From Tricharina praecox (lineage: Eukaryota): a DNA stretch of 64,000 bases. Shown here in pieces: positions 14,563 through 18,990 of this stretch. The stretch lies in assembly GCF_024521635.1 (NCBI RefSeq), contig NW_026250450.1:1-64000 (forward strand), written 5' to 3'. The notes beneath the pieces were generated by a model. That model was not told where the DNA came from. It searched no databases and saw only the letters and a program-made list of their open reading frames with translations. Each line of letters begins with the position of its first letter. Positions within the stretch are counted from its first letter, which is position 1. Position numbers and translations under genes: made by a program.

Positions 14563-15202
14563 ATGAAGGCTTCACTCTACTCCCTGATTACCCTCTGCCT
14601 TGCCGCCTCAACGCTCGCCGCCTCGATTGCGGATCGTGGTGACAGGAAGTATTTGTGTTCGTCTACCTTGCATCTCCCACCTTTGATGAACCCTGGCTGA
14701 CTGATAGATTGCAGCTGTATACAAGCGAGACACTCCGGTAGATGGCCTTACCGGCGGCGCTACCGACGGTGCTATCGGCAACGGTCCGGACGCTCTTGGC
14801 GGTCTCACCGAGGGTCTTCTGGGCGGTCTTCCCGCCGCCCTTGTTCGGCGCGATGCCGGCAGCGGGTATACCGACGAGGATACCGATGAGCATAGCGACC
14901 ACGATGCCAACGAGCATAGCGACGAGGATACCGACGAGGATACCGACGAGGATACCGACGAGGACACTGACCACGATACCGACGAGCACAGCGACGAGGA
15001 CACCGAAGATCATACCGACGAGGATACCAGAGCTGTATACAAGCGAGACACTCCGATAGATGGCCTTACCGGCGGCGCTACCGACGGTGCTACCAGCAAT
15101 GGTCTGAGCGGTCCTGCCGACATTGTTCCGGCTGGTCTTTTGGGTGGTCTCACCGGCGCCGTCCCGGGTGGACTCGGCGGTGGTATTCCGGTCCGCGTAT
15201 GA
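14563..15202 (+). CDS. Secreted Kex2-processed repeat precursor A (KEP-like), 193 aa; exons 14563-14656 and 14715-15202
   Basis: Signal peptide MKASLYSLITLCLAASTLA. Phase-1 intron 14657-14714 (GTTCGT..GCTGAC..CAG). The spliced frame is open: ...RGDRKYLSVYKR / DTPVDGLTGGATDGA...LPAALVRR / DAGSGYTDEDTDEHSDHD...TRAVYKR / DTPIDGLTGGATDGA...GIPVRV*. Confidence 0.85.
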
Positions 15203-17246
15203 ATACGCAATACATGACCGTCCAGTATGTGTCGAGTGAAGGAAAGTAGTATTTGTTTATCTTCTCGTCTGCGAGTCGTATGTATTATACATAGTTGTCG
15301 TGTTTTTGTTACTTTGAGTGCGGAATAGGTAGGTAGTCGTGGGACGCTAGATGTAGCGCAGTAATGTAATCATATGAGTGGCTGGTCATTTTTGTCATGA
15401 TTCCTTCTGCCGACTGGTGAAACAACTTCGGTCAAAACCCATGTTGAAGGGGTGACCGTTCATTTCTACGATGATGAGATAAAAAACGCGGACAGGCTGA
15501 GATCCGCAGCCGCAGCACCCTCATCAGCCACCTCGGGCATACCCGGTGATCTCGGCCATCGACGACAGCCATTGGCGACCCTACCTAGACTACACATCCA
15601 AAAAGCAGAAGTGGGAGGGACGCACTTCATACACTCGCCGCATACGGAAGCTCTATGTATATACGGGTTTCTTTCTTCTTTCTGGTAATTCCCGTCAGGG
15701 TTTTACCAATACTATATCGGAAGGCTCAGGCGGAGCTCAGGTGATGGGATGTGGTTACAACTTACTCCCGAGCCAGCCACGGGGGACGACTTCCAAGATC
15801 CGGCAGTCGCTTGCGGCGGTGCTGCAGCACCTGCGGAACCGGTTCGACATCAACCTCCATCACGGATTCGCGAGACGAGCTTGGCATCGTGCCGCGTGTC
15901 TACTAGTAGTAACTAATTCCTAGTGCTAGTCCGTTGGCCGTATTCATGAGCTAGCGGATCACGGGCACCACTCACAGCCTGTGTTGGTGCTTTTCGCCAT
16001 TCGGTGGGACTGTGAATGTTTTACCATGAGCGGCGGTGGTTGGGGAATTAGTTACCCAGGCAACTCTACTGTACATTATTCAACCACGACAGGTCCCTCG
16101 ATACATACGGGGACCGGACTGACTCGAAGAAACAATACAAGAAGCTTTCGAGGCCCCAGCCCTATGATATGTACCCGAGTACGTTTCGCAGCCGCGCTCA
16201 AATTTCCGTATGATACTTAGAAGTCTCGAGCCAACGACTCACGAGCTATGACGCAGTGGGGGCTGTGAGATTGGCTATGTCGACGCGTGCGATTGGGGTG
16301 TGTCGGCTGCTCAACGTGCGCCGCGTTGGTTGCGCAACAGGCCGGTCCCGGTAGATTGCGATCTTCGATTCGTTGGTTGACGCCTCCTGAGCTACCGCCT
16401 GACAGATTGCACCTTGCAGTGCGTGTCCGAGTGGAAATCAGTGAATGGCGATCGTGGGTTCCCTTGCGTATGTTATTTGTAAGATTCTGGTGCCGCAACA
16501 TCTCTCTTACTCTGTTTACTCCAAGAGGTGATGGGTTTATTGCCATATCTGACTGTGTGAATCTTTATCTGGTATCTTCACGTCTGATACGAAGACAATT
16601 AAACGAGTATACTTTTGTATTCGTTTTATTTCGCGTTCGGGTAATCATCTGTCTGCCAAGCGCAAAAAACACTCCCCGAATTGAGACAGATTTACCTCTG
16701 AACTGAGTTGATACATGTTCCATTTCACCTTTAATTCGGGATTACTCCTGTTGCTTGGGAAACATGTTCCCTCTCGATGGTATGCGATGATACGAAGCGC
16801 GCCCCGCTGAAGGATTTCTCGAAGTCGGGACCCCCTGAATGAACCGATAACCCCCATTTCCGCCCGCGCAGGGGTGACCCATGGCAGCGTGACAGCGCCC
16901 AACCCAACGCAGCCAACAACGCCGATGCTTTCTGCTCCTGAGGATGTTTTCTTTTTAAGCTTAATCGTGGCTCGGCGATCACTTCCTCAACCGATCGGTT
17001 TTACCGTACCGAACGGATGACTACTGCAATACGCAGGTACCGGCTTTTGCCGCCAAGTAACTTCACTCCGCCGCTAACGCTGACGCTAACTAACGCCTAC
17101 GCCTTCGTGCCCTGAGCGTCGGGAATCTAACTTGCAAAGGGGAGCCGCTCGTCGAGACGAGATGGATGAATTGCTCGGCGAGGAGCATGCCGTGCAGAAC
17201 CTTACGGCTAGGGGAAGATGATGCTTGGCCGATCAATGAGGGGGGA

Positions 17247-17252
17247 TATAAG
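17247..17252 (+). promoter_or_regulatory. Putative TATA box of precursor gene B
   Basis: TATAAG 134 bp upstream of ATG 17381. Confidence 0.5.
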
Positions 17253-17380
17253 GGGCTCTCCTTCGCTGGCTTCAGAGTTGAATCATTGTTCAACGCTTCA
17301 CACATCCTCCTCATCCTCCTCCTATACTACCATTTTAATATTCACCCGTCTCCGACAACTTCATACCACAATCTTTCAAA

Positions 17381-18152
17381 ATGAGGACTTCTTTCTACTC
17401 CATCATCGCCCTGTGCCTTGCCGTCTCGACGCTTGCCGCCCCGATGGCCGAGCGTGGAAACAGAAAACAACTGTGTATGTCCACCTTCCCGCACCCATCC
17501 TTGAGGAACTATTCCTAACATCATTACAGCTGTGTACAAGCGAGCCGGCGAGGTTCCTGCCCTTCCCGCCACCCCCGAGGCTCCCGCCACCCCCGAGGCT
17601 CCCGCCTTCCCGGAGGCCCCCGAGCTTGCTGCCGCTGAGGCCCCTGCCGTCCCCGATACTCCTGCCGTCCCCGAGACTCCTGCTGTCCCTGAGAGTCCTG
17701 CCGTCCCTCAGGCTCCTGCCGTCCCTGAGGCTCCTGCCGTCCCCGAGGCTCCTGCCGTCCCTGAGGCTCCTGCCGTCCCCGAGGCTCCTGCCGTCCCCGA
17801 GACTCCTTCCTTCCGCAACAGGGTTCCTACCACTCCCGCCGTCCCGGAGGCTCCCGAGGTGCCTGTCACCCCCGAGACTCCCGCCACCCCCGAGGTTCCC
17901 GCCACCCCCGAGACTCCTGCCGCTGAGGTCCCCGAGACTCCTGTCGCCCCCGAGTCTCCTGCCGCCGAGGCTCCCGAGGCCCCTGCCACCCCCGAGTTTG
18001 CTGCCTTGGAGGCCCCTGCCACCCCCGAGTTTTCTGCCTTGGAGGCCCCTGCCACCCCCGAGACTCCTGCGGCGCCTGCTGCACCCGCGGCTCCTGCCCT
18101 CCCTAAGGCTCCTGCAGCCCCCGCCACCCCCGAGGTTCCCAGCCGCAAGTAG
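17381..18152 (+). CDS. Secreted Pro/Ala/Glu-rich repeat precursor B, paralog of A, 238 aa; exons 17381-17474 and 17530-18152
   Basis: Signal peptide MRTSFYSIIALCLAVSTLA and pro-region APMAERGNRKQLSVYKR. Phase-1 intron 17475-17529 (GTATGT..CCTAAC..CAG) at the same position as in gene A. The mature part is PA(T/V)PE(A/T) repeats. Confidence 0.85.
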
Positions 18153-18990
18153 GAAGCGGGCTCCTATGTCGACAAGCAGGCGGGTTGAGGGTGACATGGC
18201 GGAGGAGGTCACTGCTTAATGGCGATGCATGTATAATGTTCTGAGCGGTTGAAGGGAGTTTTTGTCTGGATTTTTTATTTTATCTGCGAGTTACTTGTGT
18301 ATATATAGTCGTGTCAGTTGGCGCGCAAATTAGGTAGTCGAGCCAAAGCGACAGCGGTGCTCGGCGATGGGCCGATAATAATAATTGTATTTTGGGTCGT
18401 ATGGGTTTTCCTGACGGTAACTGGTGATGACCGAGTTCGTTGTTACTGGATGGCTGGCAATAGCTGCAGATCAGTGGCTGCTGGTCGCTTGTTGTCAGTG
18501 TCCATGCATGGGTTGGCTCGTATGTTCTCAAACTATCGTGTACCTAAACGACCGGCCTCAAGGCTCGATTCATCATCTTCGTGCCTGTAACCCAAATCCA
18601 CAGGATCAGTATTGTGTTGCTACGCTTGCCGTGTGATCACTTACCTTTGAGACTAGTCTCTGGACTCCGGAGAGCGAGGGATATCTTTGTACCGGCGGTT
18701 AGGAGTACGCGGCACTGTTGGATACCCCTGGTCTTCTTCATCGGGTTCTTCATCGGGAGAGAGCGATTGGTTCAGGTACAACCTAAGGCGGTCAATATTA
18801 TTCAAGGCTGATACTACGAACCGACTTCATCGGATGTGAAGGGTTAACTATATCAGACGCAAGTCATAACAAGGAAATCACAGGAAAATACGAGTGAGTG
18901 AATTTAGAGTTGATGCAGACCAGTAGCTACAGTACTATTCCCCCCAGCTGACAGCTTCATCCTCCATCGCCATCAAATGACACAGCCCGT

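What the first reader, a model, noticed from the sequence alone, without database searches (positions are those of the whole stretch)
14563..18330. Tandem pair of secreted precursors with a constant leader and completely different cargo
Seen: genes A and B both have a 94-nt exon 1 and a phase-1 intron at the same position. Their signal+pro peptides are homologous (MKASLYSLITLCLAASTLAASIADRGDRKYLSVYKR vs MRTSFYSIIALCLAVSTLAAPMAERGNRKQLSVYKR). TATAAG lies at -138 and -134, and the 3' flanks are similar (TCTGCGAGT...ATAGT.GT...TAGGTAGTCG). After VYKR the proteins share nothing: Gly/Leu plus Asp/His peptides in A, Pro-X-X repeats in B. Known: Kex2 cleaves after KR/RR, and conserved-leader/hypervariable-cargo organisation occurs in peptide toxin families such as conotoxins and in fungal KEX2-processed repeat proteins. 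Inference: a lineage-specific secretion cassette whose cargo is rebuilt by repeat expansion, possibly an undescribed peptide family. The ORF track misses it.
Basis: partly seen in the sequence, partly recalled or inferred. Interest (0 to 1): 0.85.

Follow-up and report, generated by a model that had tools for sequence, protein, structure and literature searches.

The report
Paired fungal secreted genes, shared leader
Two neighbouring genes of an ascomycete fungus, both transcribed and spliced as predicted, encode secreted acidic repeat proteins that share only their export leader and a protease cutting site; the type of precursor is well known in fungi, but no relative of this pair was found anywhere.

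Summary
Gene A (14563-15202) and gene B (17381-18152) each have a 94-nt exon 1 and a phase-1 intron at the same codon. Contigs from two public runs skip exactly 14657-14714 and 17475-17529. A and B are homologous from about -150 through the 5'UTR, exon 1, the intron and the first 17 nt of exon 2 (67-88% identity, 0 of 200 shuffles as good). Similarity stops one base after the KR codons. The 3'UTRs are weakly related, so a whole gene was duplicated and its middle replaced.

Gene A's cargo is a two-unit polyprotein. A Gly/Leu-rich unit preceded by VYKR occurs twice, separated by a 65-residue Asp/Glu/Thr/His spacer. Gene B's cargo is a 202-residue Pro/Ala/Glu repeat rod. Both cargoes are largely tandem repeats, and their length varies between samples.

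No relative of the leader or of either cargo turned up in any library searched. Only two members are visible, and the genome is not held.

The leader is hardly better conserved than the intron and 5'UTR. The conotoxin-like "cassette" reading is therefore possible but unproven.

Best reading: a lineage-specific pair of Kex2-type pre-pro secreted disordered proteins, which is a new member of a known kind.

The parts
14425..14430 (+). TATAAG box of gene A, at -138 from the ATG. It begins the promoter and 5'UTR block that is homologous to gene B.
   Evidence: The -150..-1 block is 67% identical to B, z 7.8, 0 of 200 shuffles as good.
14491..14562 (+). 5'UTR of gene A (minimum extent, CT-rich).
   Evidence: A contig of run X1 starts at 14491 and runs on into the coding sequence (table 8).
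14563..14656 (+). Gene A exon 1 (94 nt). Encodes the signal peptide (basic N-end, hydrophobic core at residues 8-19, Ala-rich end) and the first part of the propeptide.
   Evidence: 71/94 nt identical to B's exon 1.
14657..14714 (+). Gene A intron: 58 nt, GT..AG, phase 1, with a CTGAC branch-like site.
   Evidence: Skipped exactly by an X1 contig (depth 630, 54 nt on the shorter side, table 5). 38/55 nt identical to B's intron.
14715..14728 (+). Start of gene A exon 2. Completes Ser32 and encodes VYKR, the predicted first kexin site (cut after Arg36).
   Evidence: The 15-mer CTGTRTACAAGCGAG occurs three times in the window against 0.12 expected.
14729..14851 (+). Gene A unit 1: a 41-residue Gly/Leu/Ala/Asp/Thr-rich peptide ending in LVRR (second dibasic site).
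   Evidence: residues 37-77, 27% Gly, 17% Leu, net charge -3. Aligned with unit 2.
14852..15046 (+). Gene A acidic spacer: 65 residues, Asp/Glu/Thr/His-rich, net charge -30, 6 His. Built from a 12-nt tandem array and ending in a second VYKR.
   Evidence: TRF finds 14868-15028, period 12, 13.4 copies. Composition. One 12-nt unit is absent at 14954 in run X2.
15047..15202 (+). Gene A unit 2: a 51-residue paralogue of unit 1, plus the TGA stop (15200-15202).
   Evidence: Direct repeat 14713-14801 / 15031-15119, 89% identical. Protein alignment.
15203..15385 (+). Gene A 3'UTR (minimum extent), with the shared motifs TCTGCGAGT (15268) and TAGGTAGTCG (15330).
   Evidence: Contigs reach 15382 and 15385. 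Motif positions. Best non-self match is B's 3' flank.
17247..17252 (+). TATAAG box of gene B, at -134 from the ATG.
17301..17380 (+). 5'UTR of gene B (minimum extent).
   Evidence: An X2 contig starts at 17301 (table 8).
17381..17474 (+). Gene B exon 1 (94 nt): signal peptide plus the first part of the propeptide.
17475..17529 (+). Gene B intron: 55 nt, GT..AG, phase 1.
   Evidence: Skipped exactly by an X2 contig (depth 8.3, 174 nt on the shorter side, table 5).
17530..17543 (+). Start of gene B exon 2. Completes Ser32 and encodes VYKR, B's only dibasic site.
17544..18152 (+). Gene B cargo: 202 residues (Pro 29%, Ala 28%, Glu 14%, Thr 9%, Val 9%; net charge -25; Pro at about every third residue), plus the TAG stop.
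   Evidence: TRF arrays of period 18, 42 and 33 cover 17564-18062, which is 499 of 603 cargo nt. An in-frame 36-nt length variant at 17709/17746 appears in run X1.
18153..18373 (+). Gene B 3'UTR (minimum extent), with TCTGCGAGT (18283) and TAGGTAGTCG (18331).

Best explanation
A and B are tandem paralogues in an ascomycete. They encode small, cysteine-poor, strongly acidic, probably disordered secreted pre-pro-proteins.

Origin: a whole ancestral gene (core promoter, 5'UTR, exon 1, phase-1 intron, VYKR codons, 3'UTR) was duplicated in tandem (leader dS about 0.6). Since then the stretch between the KR codons and the stop has been overwritten in each copy by slippage-driven repeat expansion. 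In A this was a 12-nt array plus a 318-nt internal duplication. In B it was 18-, 33- and 42-nt arrays. As a result only the export module is still alignable.

Inferred pathway:
1. The signal peptide is removed around Ala19-Ala23 in the ER.
2. A kexin (Kex2-type) protease cuts after VYKR36 in the Golgi.
3. Protein A is cut again after LVRR77 and VYKR142. This releases two related anionic Gly/Leu-rich peptides of about 39 and 51 residues and a polyacidic, His-bearing spacer of about 63 residues. A therefore works like a minimal Kex2-processed repeat protein.
4. Protein B loses only its short propeptide and leaves the cell as a 202-residue Pro/Ala/Glu/Thr rod, probably O-glycosylated.

The most likely role is extracellular or hyphal-surface material (coat, matrix, or ion-binding polyanion) rather than an enzyme or a folded effector.

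Shown: the gene structures, splicing, transcription, the extent of homology, the repeat make-up and the length polymorphism. Inferred: secretion, the cleavages and the role.
For: Splicing and transcription:
- Contigs of two runs from two studies skip exactly 14657-14714 (X1) and 17475-17529 (X2), with GT..AG ends.
- Within 13800-19800 they cover only 14491-15385, 17301-18373 and 19338-19601.

Extent of homology:
- The -150..-1 block, exon 1, the intron and the first 17 nt of exon 2 all match with 0 of 200 shuffles as good, while the cargo does not align.
- No cross-frame similarity.
- B's 3' flank ranks first of 847 non-self windows against A's.
- TAGGTAGTCG is unique to the two 3'UTRs.

Leader and cleavage sites:
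- Leader dN/dS is 0.29 (Nd 12.5 of 80 sites, Sd 11.5 of 28 sites).
- The N-terminus looks like a signal peptide: K/R at residue 2 and a 12-residue hydrophobic core with Kyte-Doolittle mean 2.1 (A) and 2.6 (B). There is no later hydrophobic stretch typical of a membrane span (maximum 19-residue mean 1.3 in A and 0.5 in B).
- Dibasic sites are at 35-36, 76-77 and 141-142 in A and only at 35-36 in B.
- P4 is Val or Leu at all of these sites, matching the Kex2 preference described in PMC8528282.

Repeats: tandem arrays, the internal duplication, and in-frame length variants of 12 and 36 nt in other samples.

Structure: AlphaFold2 on single sequences gave mean pLDDT 51 (A) and 59 (B) with no secondary structure. 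This is compatible with disorder but does not prove it.
Against: - No signal-peptide predictor was available, so secretion rests on heuristics.
- No proteomic evidence for any cleavage.
- Neither A unit is significantly amphipathic: maximum helical moment was reached by 69 of 1000 shuffles for unit 1 and 803 of 1000 for unit 2. A repellent-like or membrane-active surface role therefore has no direct support.
- A has two repeats, not the three or more demanded by the published KEP pipeline.
- The 3'UTR homology is weak and is not significant by plain local alignment (62 of 300 shuffles as good). Duplication of the 5' module alone is therefore not excluded.
- The runs' kind (RNA) is the tool's guess, and each junction rests on one assembled contig.
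- The cargo may have no selected function at all.
Confidence: 0.6

Rival explanations
1. A true modular secretion cassette. The block of promoter, exon 1, intron and VYKR is a reusable export module kept constant by selection or recombination. It heads a larger genome-wide family whose cargo is hypervariable, as in frog-skin dermaseptin precursors or conotoxins.
For: - Homology ends one base after the KR codons.
- The 15-nt VYKR module is the only piece shared by B, A unit 1 and A unit 2.
- A's internal duplication starts within 2 nt of the exon 2 boundary.
- Leader dN/dS is 0.29.
- Animal precedents have the same layout: PMC5358776 passage and PMC12294457 passages.
Against: - Only two copies occur in 64 kb.
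- No leader-bearing protein or locus was found in the protein index or in the metagenome contigs.
- The intron and 5'UTR are about as conserved as the leader.
- The 3'UTRs keep homologous remnants, as expected for whole-gene duplication.
Confidence: 0.2
2. Young genes with little or no selected function. They are transcribed and spliced, but the low-complexity cargo drifts neutrally by slippage and has no specific activity.
For: - No relatives in any library.
- The cargo is mostly tandem repeat and varies in length between samples.
- No predicted structure.
- The genes sit in about 26 kb with no Pfam-recognisable ORF.
Against: - The leader shows fewer non-synonymous than synonymous changes per site.
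- Both long frames stay open after a duplication with dS of about 0.6.
- The two A units keep 29 invariant alignment columns, including the whole VYKRDTP start.
- Transcripts were found in two studies.
Confidence: 0.12
3. The conserved propeptide is the active product. The roughly 14-16 residues released between signal-peptidase and kexin cleavage would be a secreted signal peptide, with the variable cargo acting only as a carrier.
For: The only coding part conserved between A and B is the leader. In its pro part 11 of 17 residues are identical, read from the alignment together with VYKR.
Against: - The pro part is no better conserved than the signal part (13 of 19 identical).
- A's second site keeps only xVYKR.
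- Short KR-ended propeptides are commonplace in fungal secreted proteins (PMC8528282).
- Another ORF in this window, at 40962, also has a signal-like start followed by KR.
Confidence: 0.05
4. Precursors of ribosomally made, modified peptides of the ustiloxin/dikaritin type.
For: Signal peptide plus KR-flanked repeats in A. A P450 (27427-28047) and a methyltransferase (30575-31714, minus strand) lie 9-13 kb away.
Against: - No DUF3328/UstYa or tyrosinase domain in 199 ORFs of at least 100 residues across the window. In KEPs that have a DUF3328 gene, it lies on average 3.09 genes away (PMC7329392).
- Only two units, and they are long (41 and 51 residues).
- No short Tyr-containing core is repeated.
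- B has no internal sites.
Confidence: 0.03

Closest known systems
Kex2-processed repeat proteins (KEPs), e.g. Ustilago maydis Rep1 repellents and yeast alpha-factor precursors (PMC6339444, PMC7329392, PMC3133707)
   Same: Gene A has a signal peptide, a pro region and repeated peptide units, each preceded by KR, with a spacer between them. The units (41 and 51 residues) are close in size to the 37-residue Rep1 peptides mentioned in PMC6339444.
   Different: - A has two units, not the three or more required by the published pipeline.
- No sequence relative was found. I had no Rep1 sequence from a tool, so A was not compared with it.
- The units are anionic and not detectably amphipathic.
- Gene B has no internal sites at all.
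Kex2-processed pro-domain (K2PP) secreted proteins and effectors (PMC8528282)
   Same: Both A and B have a short, polar N-terminal pro-domain directly after the signal peptide. It ends in KR with an aliphatic P4 residue.
   Different: K2PP proteins as described are folded effectors of plant pathogens, such as SnTox3 and ToxA. Here the mature parts are low-complexity and Cys-free, and the organism's lifestyle is unknown. Cleavage is untested.
Repeat-containing secreted proteins with length polymorphism, e.g. U. maydis Rsp3 (PMC5923269, abstract start seen only in the listing)
   Same: Gene B is a secreted repeat protein whose repeat number differs between samples.
   Different: No sequence relation was tested or found. 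B's role at the hyphal surface is only conjecture.
Animal prepro cassettes: dermaseptin-superfamily precursors of frogs (PMC5358776 passage), mussel myticalins (PMC12294457 passages) and conotoxins (recalled)
   Same: A conserved signal-plus-propiece, a dibasic site at the boundary, unrelated downstream cargo and, in myticalins, a conserved phase-1 intron. This is what the pair looks like.
   Different: - Those are large families with tens to hundreds of members, mostly with cationic mature peptides under diversifying selection.
- Here there are two members with anionic repeat cargo.
- The non-coding flanks are as conserved as the leader.
- There is no common descent with the animal families.
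Fungal families recognised by gene structure rather than sequence: Blumeria Y/F/WxC effector candidates (PMC2886064). MSDIN toxin precursors of Amanita are a further example; their conserved-leader, variable-core layout is recalled, and only the listing was seen.
   Same: Paralogues with low overall similarity betray common origin through a shared phase-1 intron of about 50-60 nt and a conserved N-terminal part.
   Different: [quoted passage not shown] MSDIN peptides are not secreted through a signal peptide or Kex2 (recalled).

Membership tests
KEX2-processed repeat proteins (pipeline definition of PMC6339444) | N-terminal signal peptide | tested here: met
   Heuristic only: a basic residue at position 2 and a 12-residue hydrophobic core with Kyte-Doolittle mean 2.1 (A) and 2.6 (B), followed by small residues. 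SignalP was not available.
KEX2-processed repeat proteins (pipeline definition of PMC6339444) | At least three similar repeats separated by KR, RR or KK | tested here: not met
   A has two similar units and three dibasic sites. B has one dibasic site and none inside the cargo.
KEX2-processed repeat proteins (pipeline definition of PMC6339444) | Repeats make up at least 15% of the protein | tested here: met
   In A, the two units (41 + 51 residues) make up 92 of 193 residues.
KEX2-processed repeat proteins (pipeline definition of PMC6339444) | Actual cleavage by Kex2 and release of peptides | not testable with these tools
   Needs peptidomics or in vitro digestion.
K2PP pro-domain proteins (PMC8528282) | A disorder-prone N-terminal pro-domain in the first half of the protein, ending in KR/RR or LxxR | tested here: met
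   Residues from about 20 to 36 end in VYKR in both proteins, with P4 Val, P2 Lys and P1 Arg.
K2PP pro-domain proteins (PMC8528282) | Pro-domain absent from the mature secreted protein | not testable with these tools
   No proteomic data.
Ustiloxin-type (dikaritin) RiPP precursors (PMC7329392) | A DUF3328/UstYa gene close to the precursor gene | tested here: not met
   No such domain at E <= 1e-4 in 199 stop-to-stop ORFs of at least 100 residues across the 64 kb. Genes split into exons shorter than 100 residues could be missed.
Ustiloxin-type (dikaritin) RiPP precursors (PMC7329392) | Highly repeated short core peptides | tested here: not met
   A has two long units, and B's cargo has no KR-flanked cores.
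Conserved-prepro, hypervariable-cargo peptide superfamilies (dermaseptin, conotoxin or myticalin type; analogy only) | Many paralogues sharing the prepro region | tested here: inconclusive
   There are two copies in the window and none in the libraries. The genome itself is not held.
Conserved-prepro, hypervariable-cargo peptide superfamilies (dermaseptin, conotoxin or myticalin type; analogy only) | Prepro region clearly more conserved than neutral DNA, with the mature part under diversifying selection | tested here: inconclusive
   Exon 1 is 76% identical against 69% for the intron and 67% for the 5'UTR. Leader dN/dS is 0.29 on only 36 codons. The cargo is unalignable, so no rate can be measured.

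The most novel reading that the evidence does not exclude
The pair is the visible tip of a fungal 'secretory cassette' system. A fixed module (core promoter, signal and pro exon, phase-1 intron, VYKR codons) would drive export and kexin release of cargo that arises essentially de novo by repeat expansion. Single-unit genes could also fuse into polyproteins, which is suggested by A's second unit starting at a copy of the intron's AG plus the VYKR codons. This would be a fungal counterpart of frog-skin and cone-snail prepro cassettes, and a natural route by which Kex2-processed repeat proteins are born.
Probability: 0.2. Interest if true: 0.7.

Novelty: new member of a known kind. Interest (0 to 1): 0.4.

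Why it matters
Fungal genomes carry many small secreted, Kex2-cut precursors whose origins and functions are mostly unknown. This pair may show such genes diversifying. The promoter, leader, intron and cleavage site are still recognisably shared, while the secreted part has been completely replaced by repeat growth and is still changing in length between samples.

If further members exist in the genome, it would be a tractable case for studying how new secreted peptides are born behind an existing export module. If not, it remains a well-documented but ordinary orphan pair. Its practical value is two correct gene models, supported by spliced transcript contigs, for genes that were not found among the protein libraries searched.

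Tried and rejected
Searches for relatives, all blank or spurious:
- Word-index protein search with A's exon 2: 0 hits at E <= 0.01 among 8000 scored candidates.
- The same search with the two leaders against longer proteins: 61 candidates, 0 at E <= 10.
- The same search with B's exon 2: 37 hits at E <= 0.001, all bacterial-type proteins matched on Pro-rich linkers (LPXTG anchors, NlpC/P60, SecG and others). 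None of the 40 fetched proteins carried the leader; best local E was 1.5.
- Full HMMER scan of 1.84 billion representatives with a profile of A's two units: 3 hits, all huge bacterial repeat exoproteins that score by summing 8-14 weak repeats. I judged them spurious.
- JGI metagenome contigs, searched with the leader and then with A's units: 186 and 110 pattern matches, none confirmed by tblastn.
- ESM Atlas with A's exon 2: no usable hit.
- Pfam on both cargoes: nothing above cut-off.
- PDB sequences: 0 hits for A. For B there were 7 weak matches at E <= 1; the top one was a collagen-like fibril chain with negative domain scores, a composition artefact.
- Rfam on 12000-21000: nothing.
- Earlier findings of this scan, by place, sequence and words: nothing relevant.
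- Full-text search for six short peptide motifs: five returned nothing. 'SVYKR' matched 12 papers; the 10 listed looked unrelated by title, and I did not open them.

Other steps that led nowhere:
- The whole genome is not held, so family size in the genome is untested.
- No run on record as RNA was listed as a holder. The two holders are 'RNA?' by the tool's guess.
- Stretches without contig cover (13800-14402, 15408-17216, 18423-19226) are not counted as evidence of silence.
- Amphipathic-helix and beta-strand moments of A's units were not above shuffles, so I dropped the idea of repellent-like amphipathic peptides as a claim.
- GxxxGxxxG motifs are present in A's units, but at 27-29% Gly they cannot be told from a composition effect (no shuffle test run), so I dropped that too.
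- I considered Ste13-type X-Ala/X-Pro trimming of B. The dipeptide register does not fit, by reading the sequence.

Full report
**Observation**

- Gene A starts at 14563. Exon 1 is 14563-14656 (94 nt), followed by a 58-nt GT..AG intron (14657-14714) and an exon 2 that stays open to the TGA at 15200-15202.
- Gene B starts at 17381. Exon 1 is 17381-17474 (94 nt), followed by a 55-nt GT..AG intron (17475-17529) and an exon 2 open to the TAG at 18150-18152.
- Both introns split codon 32 after its first base.
- TATAAG lies at -138 in A and -134 in B.
- The spliced products are 193 and 238 residues.
- The leaders share 20 of 31 residues within exon 1 and 25 of 36 up to the KR.

**Transcripts**

One search for public runs found two holders from two studies. 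Their kind is only guessed to be RNA. I laid their contigs on 13800-19800.

- They cover 14491-15385, 17301-18373 and 19338-19601 only.
- One X1 contig (depth 630) joins 14656 to 14715.
- One X2 contig (depth 8.3) joins 17474 to 17530. Both joints have GT..AG ends and are exactly the junctions predicted.
- No listed contig retains either intron.

The GT..AG orientation fixes the + strand, so the long antisense and off-frame ORFs over the repeats are composition by-products. Each junction rests on one assembled contig, and the contigs cannot give transcript ends or levels.

The same call shows three differences from the window:
- a G-to-C change at 14843 (Val75 to Leu, by my reading of the codon);
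- a 12-nt deletion at 14954, one unit of A's acidic array (X2);
- a 36-nt in-frame skip from 17709 to 17746 inside B's repeats (X1), with 52 letters fitting either side, which marks a repeat-number variant rather than an intron.

**How far the two genes are alike**

Segment-by-segment global alignment with 200 shuffles each gave:

| Segment | Identity | z | Shuffles as good |
|---|---|---|---|
| -400..-251 | | 2.0 | 5 of 200 |
| -250..-151 | | 0.9 | 41 of 200 |
| -150..-1 | 95/141 | 7.8 | 0 of 200 |
| exon 1 | 71/94 | 13.2 | 0 of 200 |
| intron | 38/55 | 7.4 | 0 of 200 |
| first 17 nt of exon 2 | 15/17 | | 0 of 200 |
| cargo | | 1.7 | 9 of 200 |
| 3' +1..+200 | | -0.2 | 120 of 200 |

- Local alignment of the cargo DNA is no better than 34 of 100 shuffles.
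- tblastn of either protein finds the other gene only at exon 1, in any frame.
- Similarity stops one base after the KR codons.
- Plain local alignment of the 3' flanks is not significant: 62 of 300 shuffles are as good.
- With lenient gaps and real-sequence controls, however, B's 3' flank is the best non-self match to A's among 850 windows of 300 nt on both strands (38.5, next best 31.5, 99th percentile 30.5).
- TAGGTAGTCG occurs nowhere else in the window on either strand. TCTGCGAGT occurs at 15268 and 18283 and once on the reverse strand at 10567.

I conclude that a whole gene was duplicated and that only its middle has been replaced.

The leader has dN/dS of about 0.29 (12.5 changes on 80 non-synonymous sites, 11.5 on 28 synonymous sites; dS 0.59). 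That indicates some constraint. Its DNA identity (76%) is only a little above that of the intron (69%) and the 5'UTR (67%).

**Anatomy of the products**

- Both proteins start with a basic residue, a hydrophobic core (residues 8-19) and an Ala-rich end, followed by a polar stretch of about 16 residues ending in VYKR.
- Protein A has dibasic sites at 35-36 (KR), 76-77 (RR) and 141-142 (KR). These bound three pieces:
  - unit 1 (residues 37-77; Gly 27%, Leu 17%);
  - a spacer (78-142; Asp 34%, Glu 17%, Thr 15%, His 9%; net charge -30);
  - unit 2 (143-193).
- The two units are paralogous. They share 29 invariant alignment columns, including the entire VYKRDTP start.
- At DNA level, 14713-14801 and 15031-15119 are 89% identical. 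This repeat begins 2 nt inside the intron.
- The spacer is a 12-nt tandem array of 13.4 copies.
- Protein B has a single KR. Its 202-residue mature part is Pro 29%, Ala 28%, Glu 14%, Thr 9% and Val 9%, with net charge -25.
- B's mature part is built from 18-, 42- and 33-nt arrays covering 499 of 603 cargo nt.
- Neither protein has a Cys outside the signal peptide, an N-glycosylation sequon or a hydrophobic tail.
- AlphaFold2 on single sequences gave pLDDT 51 and 59 with no secondary structure.
- A's units are not significantly amphipathic.

**Relatives**

I found none.

- The window has no third leader or VYKR module.
- The genome is not held.
- Three word-index protein searches returned no relative. 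This covers A's cargo, both leaders against longer proteins and B's cargo.
- B's 37 hits are bacterial Pro-rich linkers, and none has the leader.
- The exhaustive HMMER scan with A's units returned three bacterial multi-repeat exoproteins, which I judge spurious.
- Two scans of metagenome contigs, the ESM Atlas, Pfam, PDB sequences, earlier findings of this scan and a full-text motif search added nothing.
- Neither A nor B hit itself in the protein index, so the proteins are not deposited there. Whether genomes of close relatives lie behind those libraries is unknown. 'Lineage-specific' is therefore consistent with the data but not proven.

**Surroundings**

I scanned 199 of the 210 stop-to-stop ORFs of at least 100 residues against Pfam (one search lists them). 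The 11 left out overlap A or B, and the two in-frame cargo ORFs had been scanned.

- Nothing is recognisable in the first 26 kb.
- The nearest domains are a P450 (27427-28047), a methyltransferase (30575-31714, minus strand) and a histone-deacetylase fragment (38557-38934, minus strand).
- Further on lie a degenerate copia-type retroelement (49657-52639) and a fungal TRP-like channel (55441-58093, minus strand).
- The channel's nearest Atlas clusters are mostly Ascomycota.
- There is no DUF3328/UstYa domain.
- A third signal-peptide-like gene lies convergent to B (ATG at 19508, minus strand). It is covered by an X1 contig and has no family.

**Mechanism**

Shown: two expressed, spliced tandem paralogues whose export module is conserved, and whose secreted part is repeat-built, mutually unrelated and length-polymorphic.

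Inferred from established knowledge of the fungal secretory pathway and of Kex2 specificity (P1 Arg, P2 Lys/Arg, aliphatic P4; PMC8528282, first of three parts of the full text read):
- Signal peptidase removes about 19-23 residues.
- Kexin cuts after VYKR36 in both proteins.
- In A, kexin also cuts after LVRR77 and VYKR142, giving two related anionic Gly/Leu peptides and a polyacidic His-bearing spacer.
- B leaves the cell as an acidic Pro-rich rod.

I favour an extracellular or surface-material role, but this is the weakest step of the argument.

Rivals, set out in their own section with odds:
- a genome-wide cassette family;
- neutral young genes;
- an active propeptide;
- a RiPP precursor.

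**Comparison with what is known**

- Gene A works like a minimal Kex2-processed repeat protein. It fails the requirement of three or more repeats in the published pipeline (PMC6339444, passages), and no DUF3328 gene was found anywhere in the window. In the 22% of KEPs that have such a gene, it lies on average 3.09 genes away (PMC7329392, passages).
- Both proteins fit the K2PP layout of a short KR-ended pro-domain (PMC8528282).
- B resembles repeat-containing, length-polymorphic secreted proteins such as Rsp3 (PMC5923269, listing only).
- The conserved-leader, unrelated-cargo layout mirrors frog dermaseptin-superfamily precursors (PMC5358776, one passage) and mussel myticalins, which also keep a phase-1 intron (PMC12294457, passages). 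Those are large families.
- Within fungi, Blumeria Y/F/WxC genes show that a shared phase-1 intron can mark common origin despite low similarity (PMC2886064, passages).
- All of these are analogies of design, not kinship.

**Verdict**

This is a new, apparently orphan member of a known kind of fungal secreted precursor. Its notable feature is a very sharp boundary between the conserved export module and the replaced cargo. Interest is moderate (0.4). It would rise if a search of the genome shows more genes behind the same leader.

Noticed in passing
window 18960-19601 (- strand; ATG at 19508): A third gene with a signal-peptide-like start lies convergent to gene B. An X1 contig covers 19338-19601, and the 5'UTR is CT-rich like those of A and B. 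It has no Pfam family, and the long ORF probably hides an intron or a frame change after about 100 residues.
   Followed up: partly
window 1-26000: No stop-to-stop ORF of at least 100 residues in the first 26 kb matches any Pfam family. The A/B pair therefore sits in a stretch that is either gene-poor or rich in orphan genes.
   Followed up: partly
window 48949-53180 (+ strand): A degenerate Ty1/copia-type retroelement. The Pol beta-barrel, gag-pre-integrase, integrase core, SH3-like and RVT_2 domains are spread over consecutive ORFs broken by stops.
   Followed up: no
window 55441-58093 (- strand): A fungal TRP-like channel gene (PF06011 plus the TRP_N ML-like domain) split over three ORFs, probably by introns. 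Its nearest Atlas clusters are mainly Ascomycota.
   Followed up: partly
window 40962-41510 (+ strand): Another ORF with a signal-peptide-like start followed shortly by KR. Short KR-ended pro-pieces are therefore not peculiar to A and B in this genome.
   Followed up: no
window 15031-15047: A's second unit begins with a copy of the intron's last two bases (AG) plus the VYKR codons, in frame with exon 1 (318 nt = 106 codons downstream of the first copy). It could in principle act as an alternative 3' splice site giving a one-unit protein. It could also be a scar of the fusion of two single-unit genes. No such joint was listed.
   Followed up: partly
window 14630-14641: A's propeptide contains an Arg-Gly-Asp triplet. 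B has Arg-Gly-Asn at the same place, so the motif is not conserved and is probably chance.
   Followed up: no
runs X1 and X2: The two runs holding near-identical transcripts (mostly 99% or more alike) carry different coded organism labels and come from different studies. Three soil metatranscriptome runs of a third study were listed as additions without holding the words.
   Followed up: no
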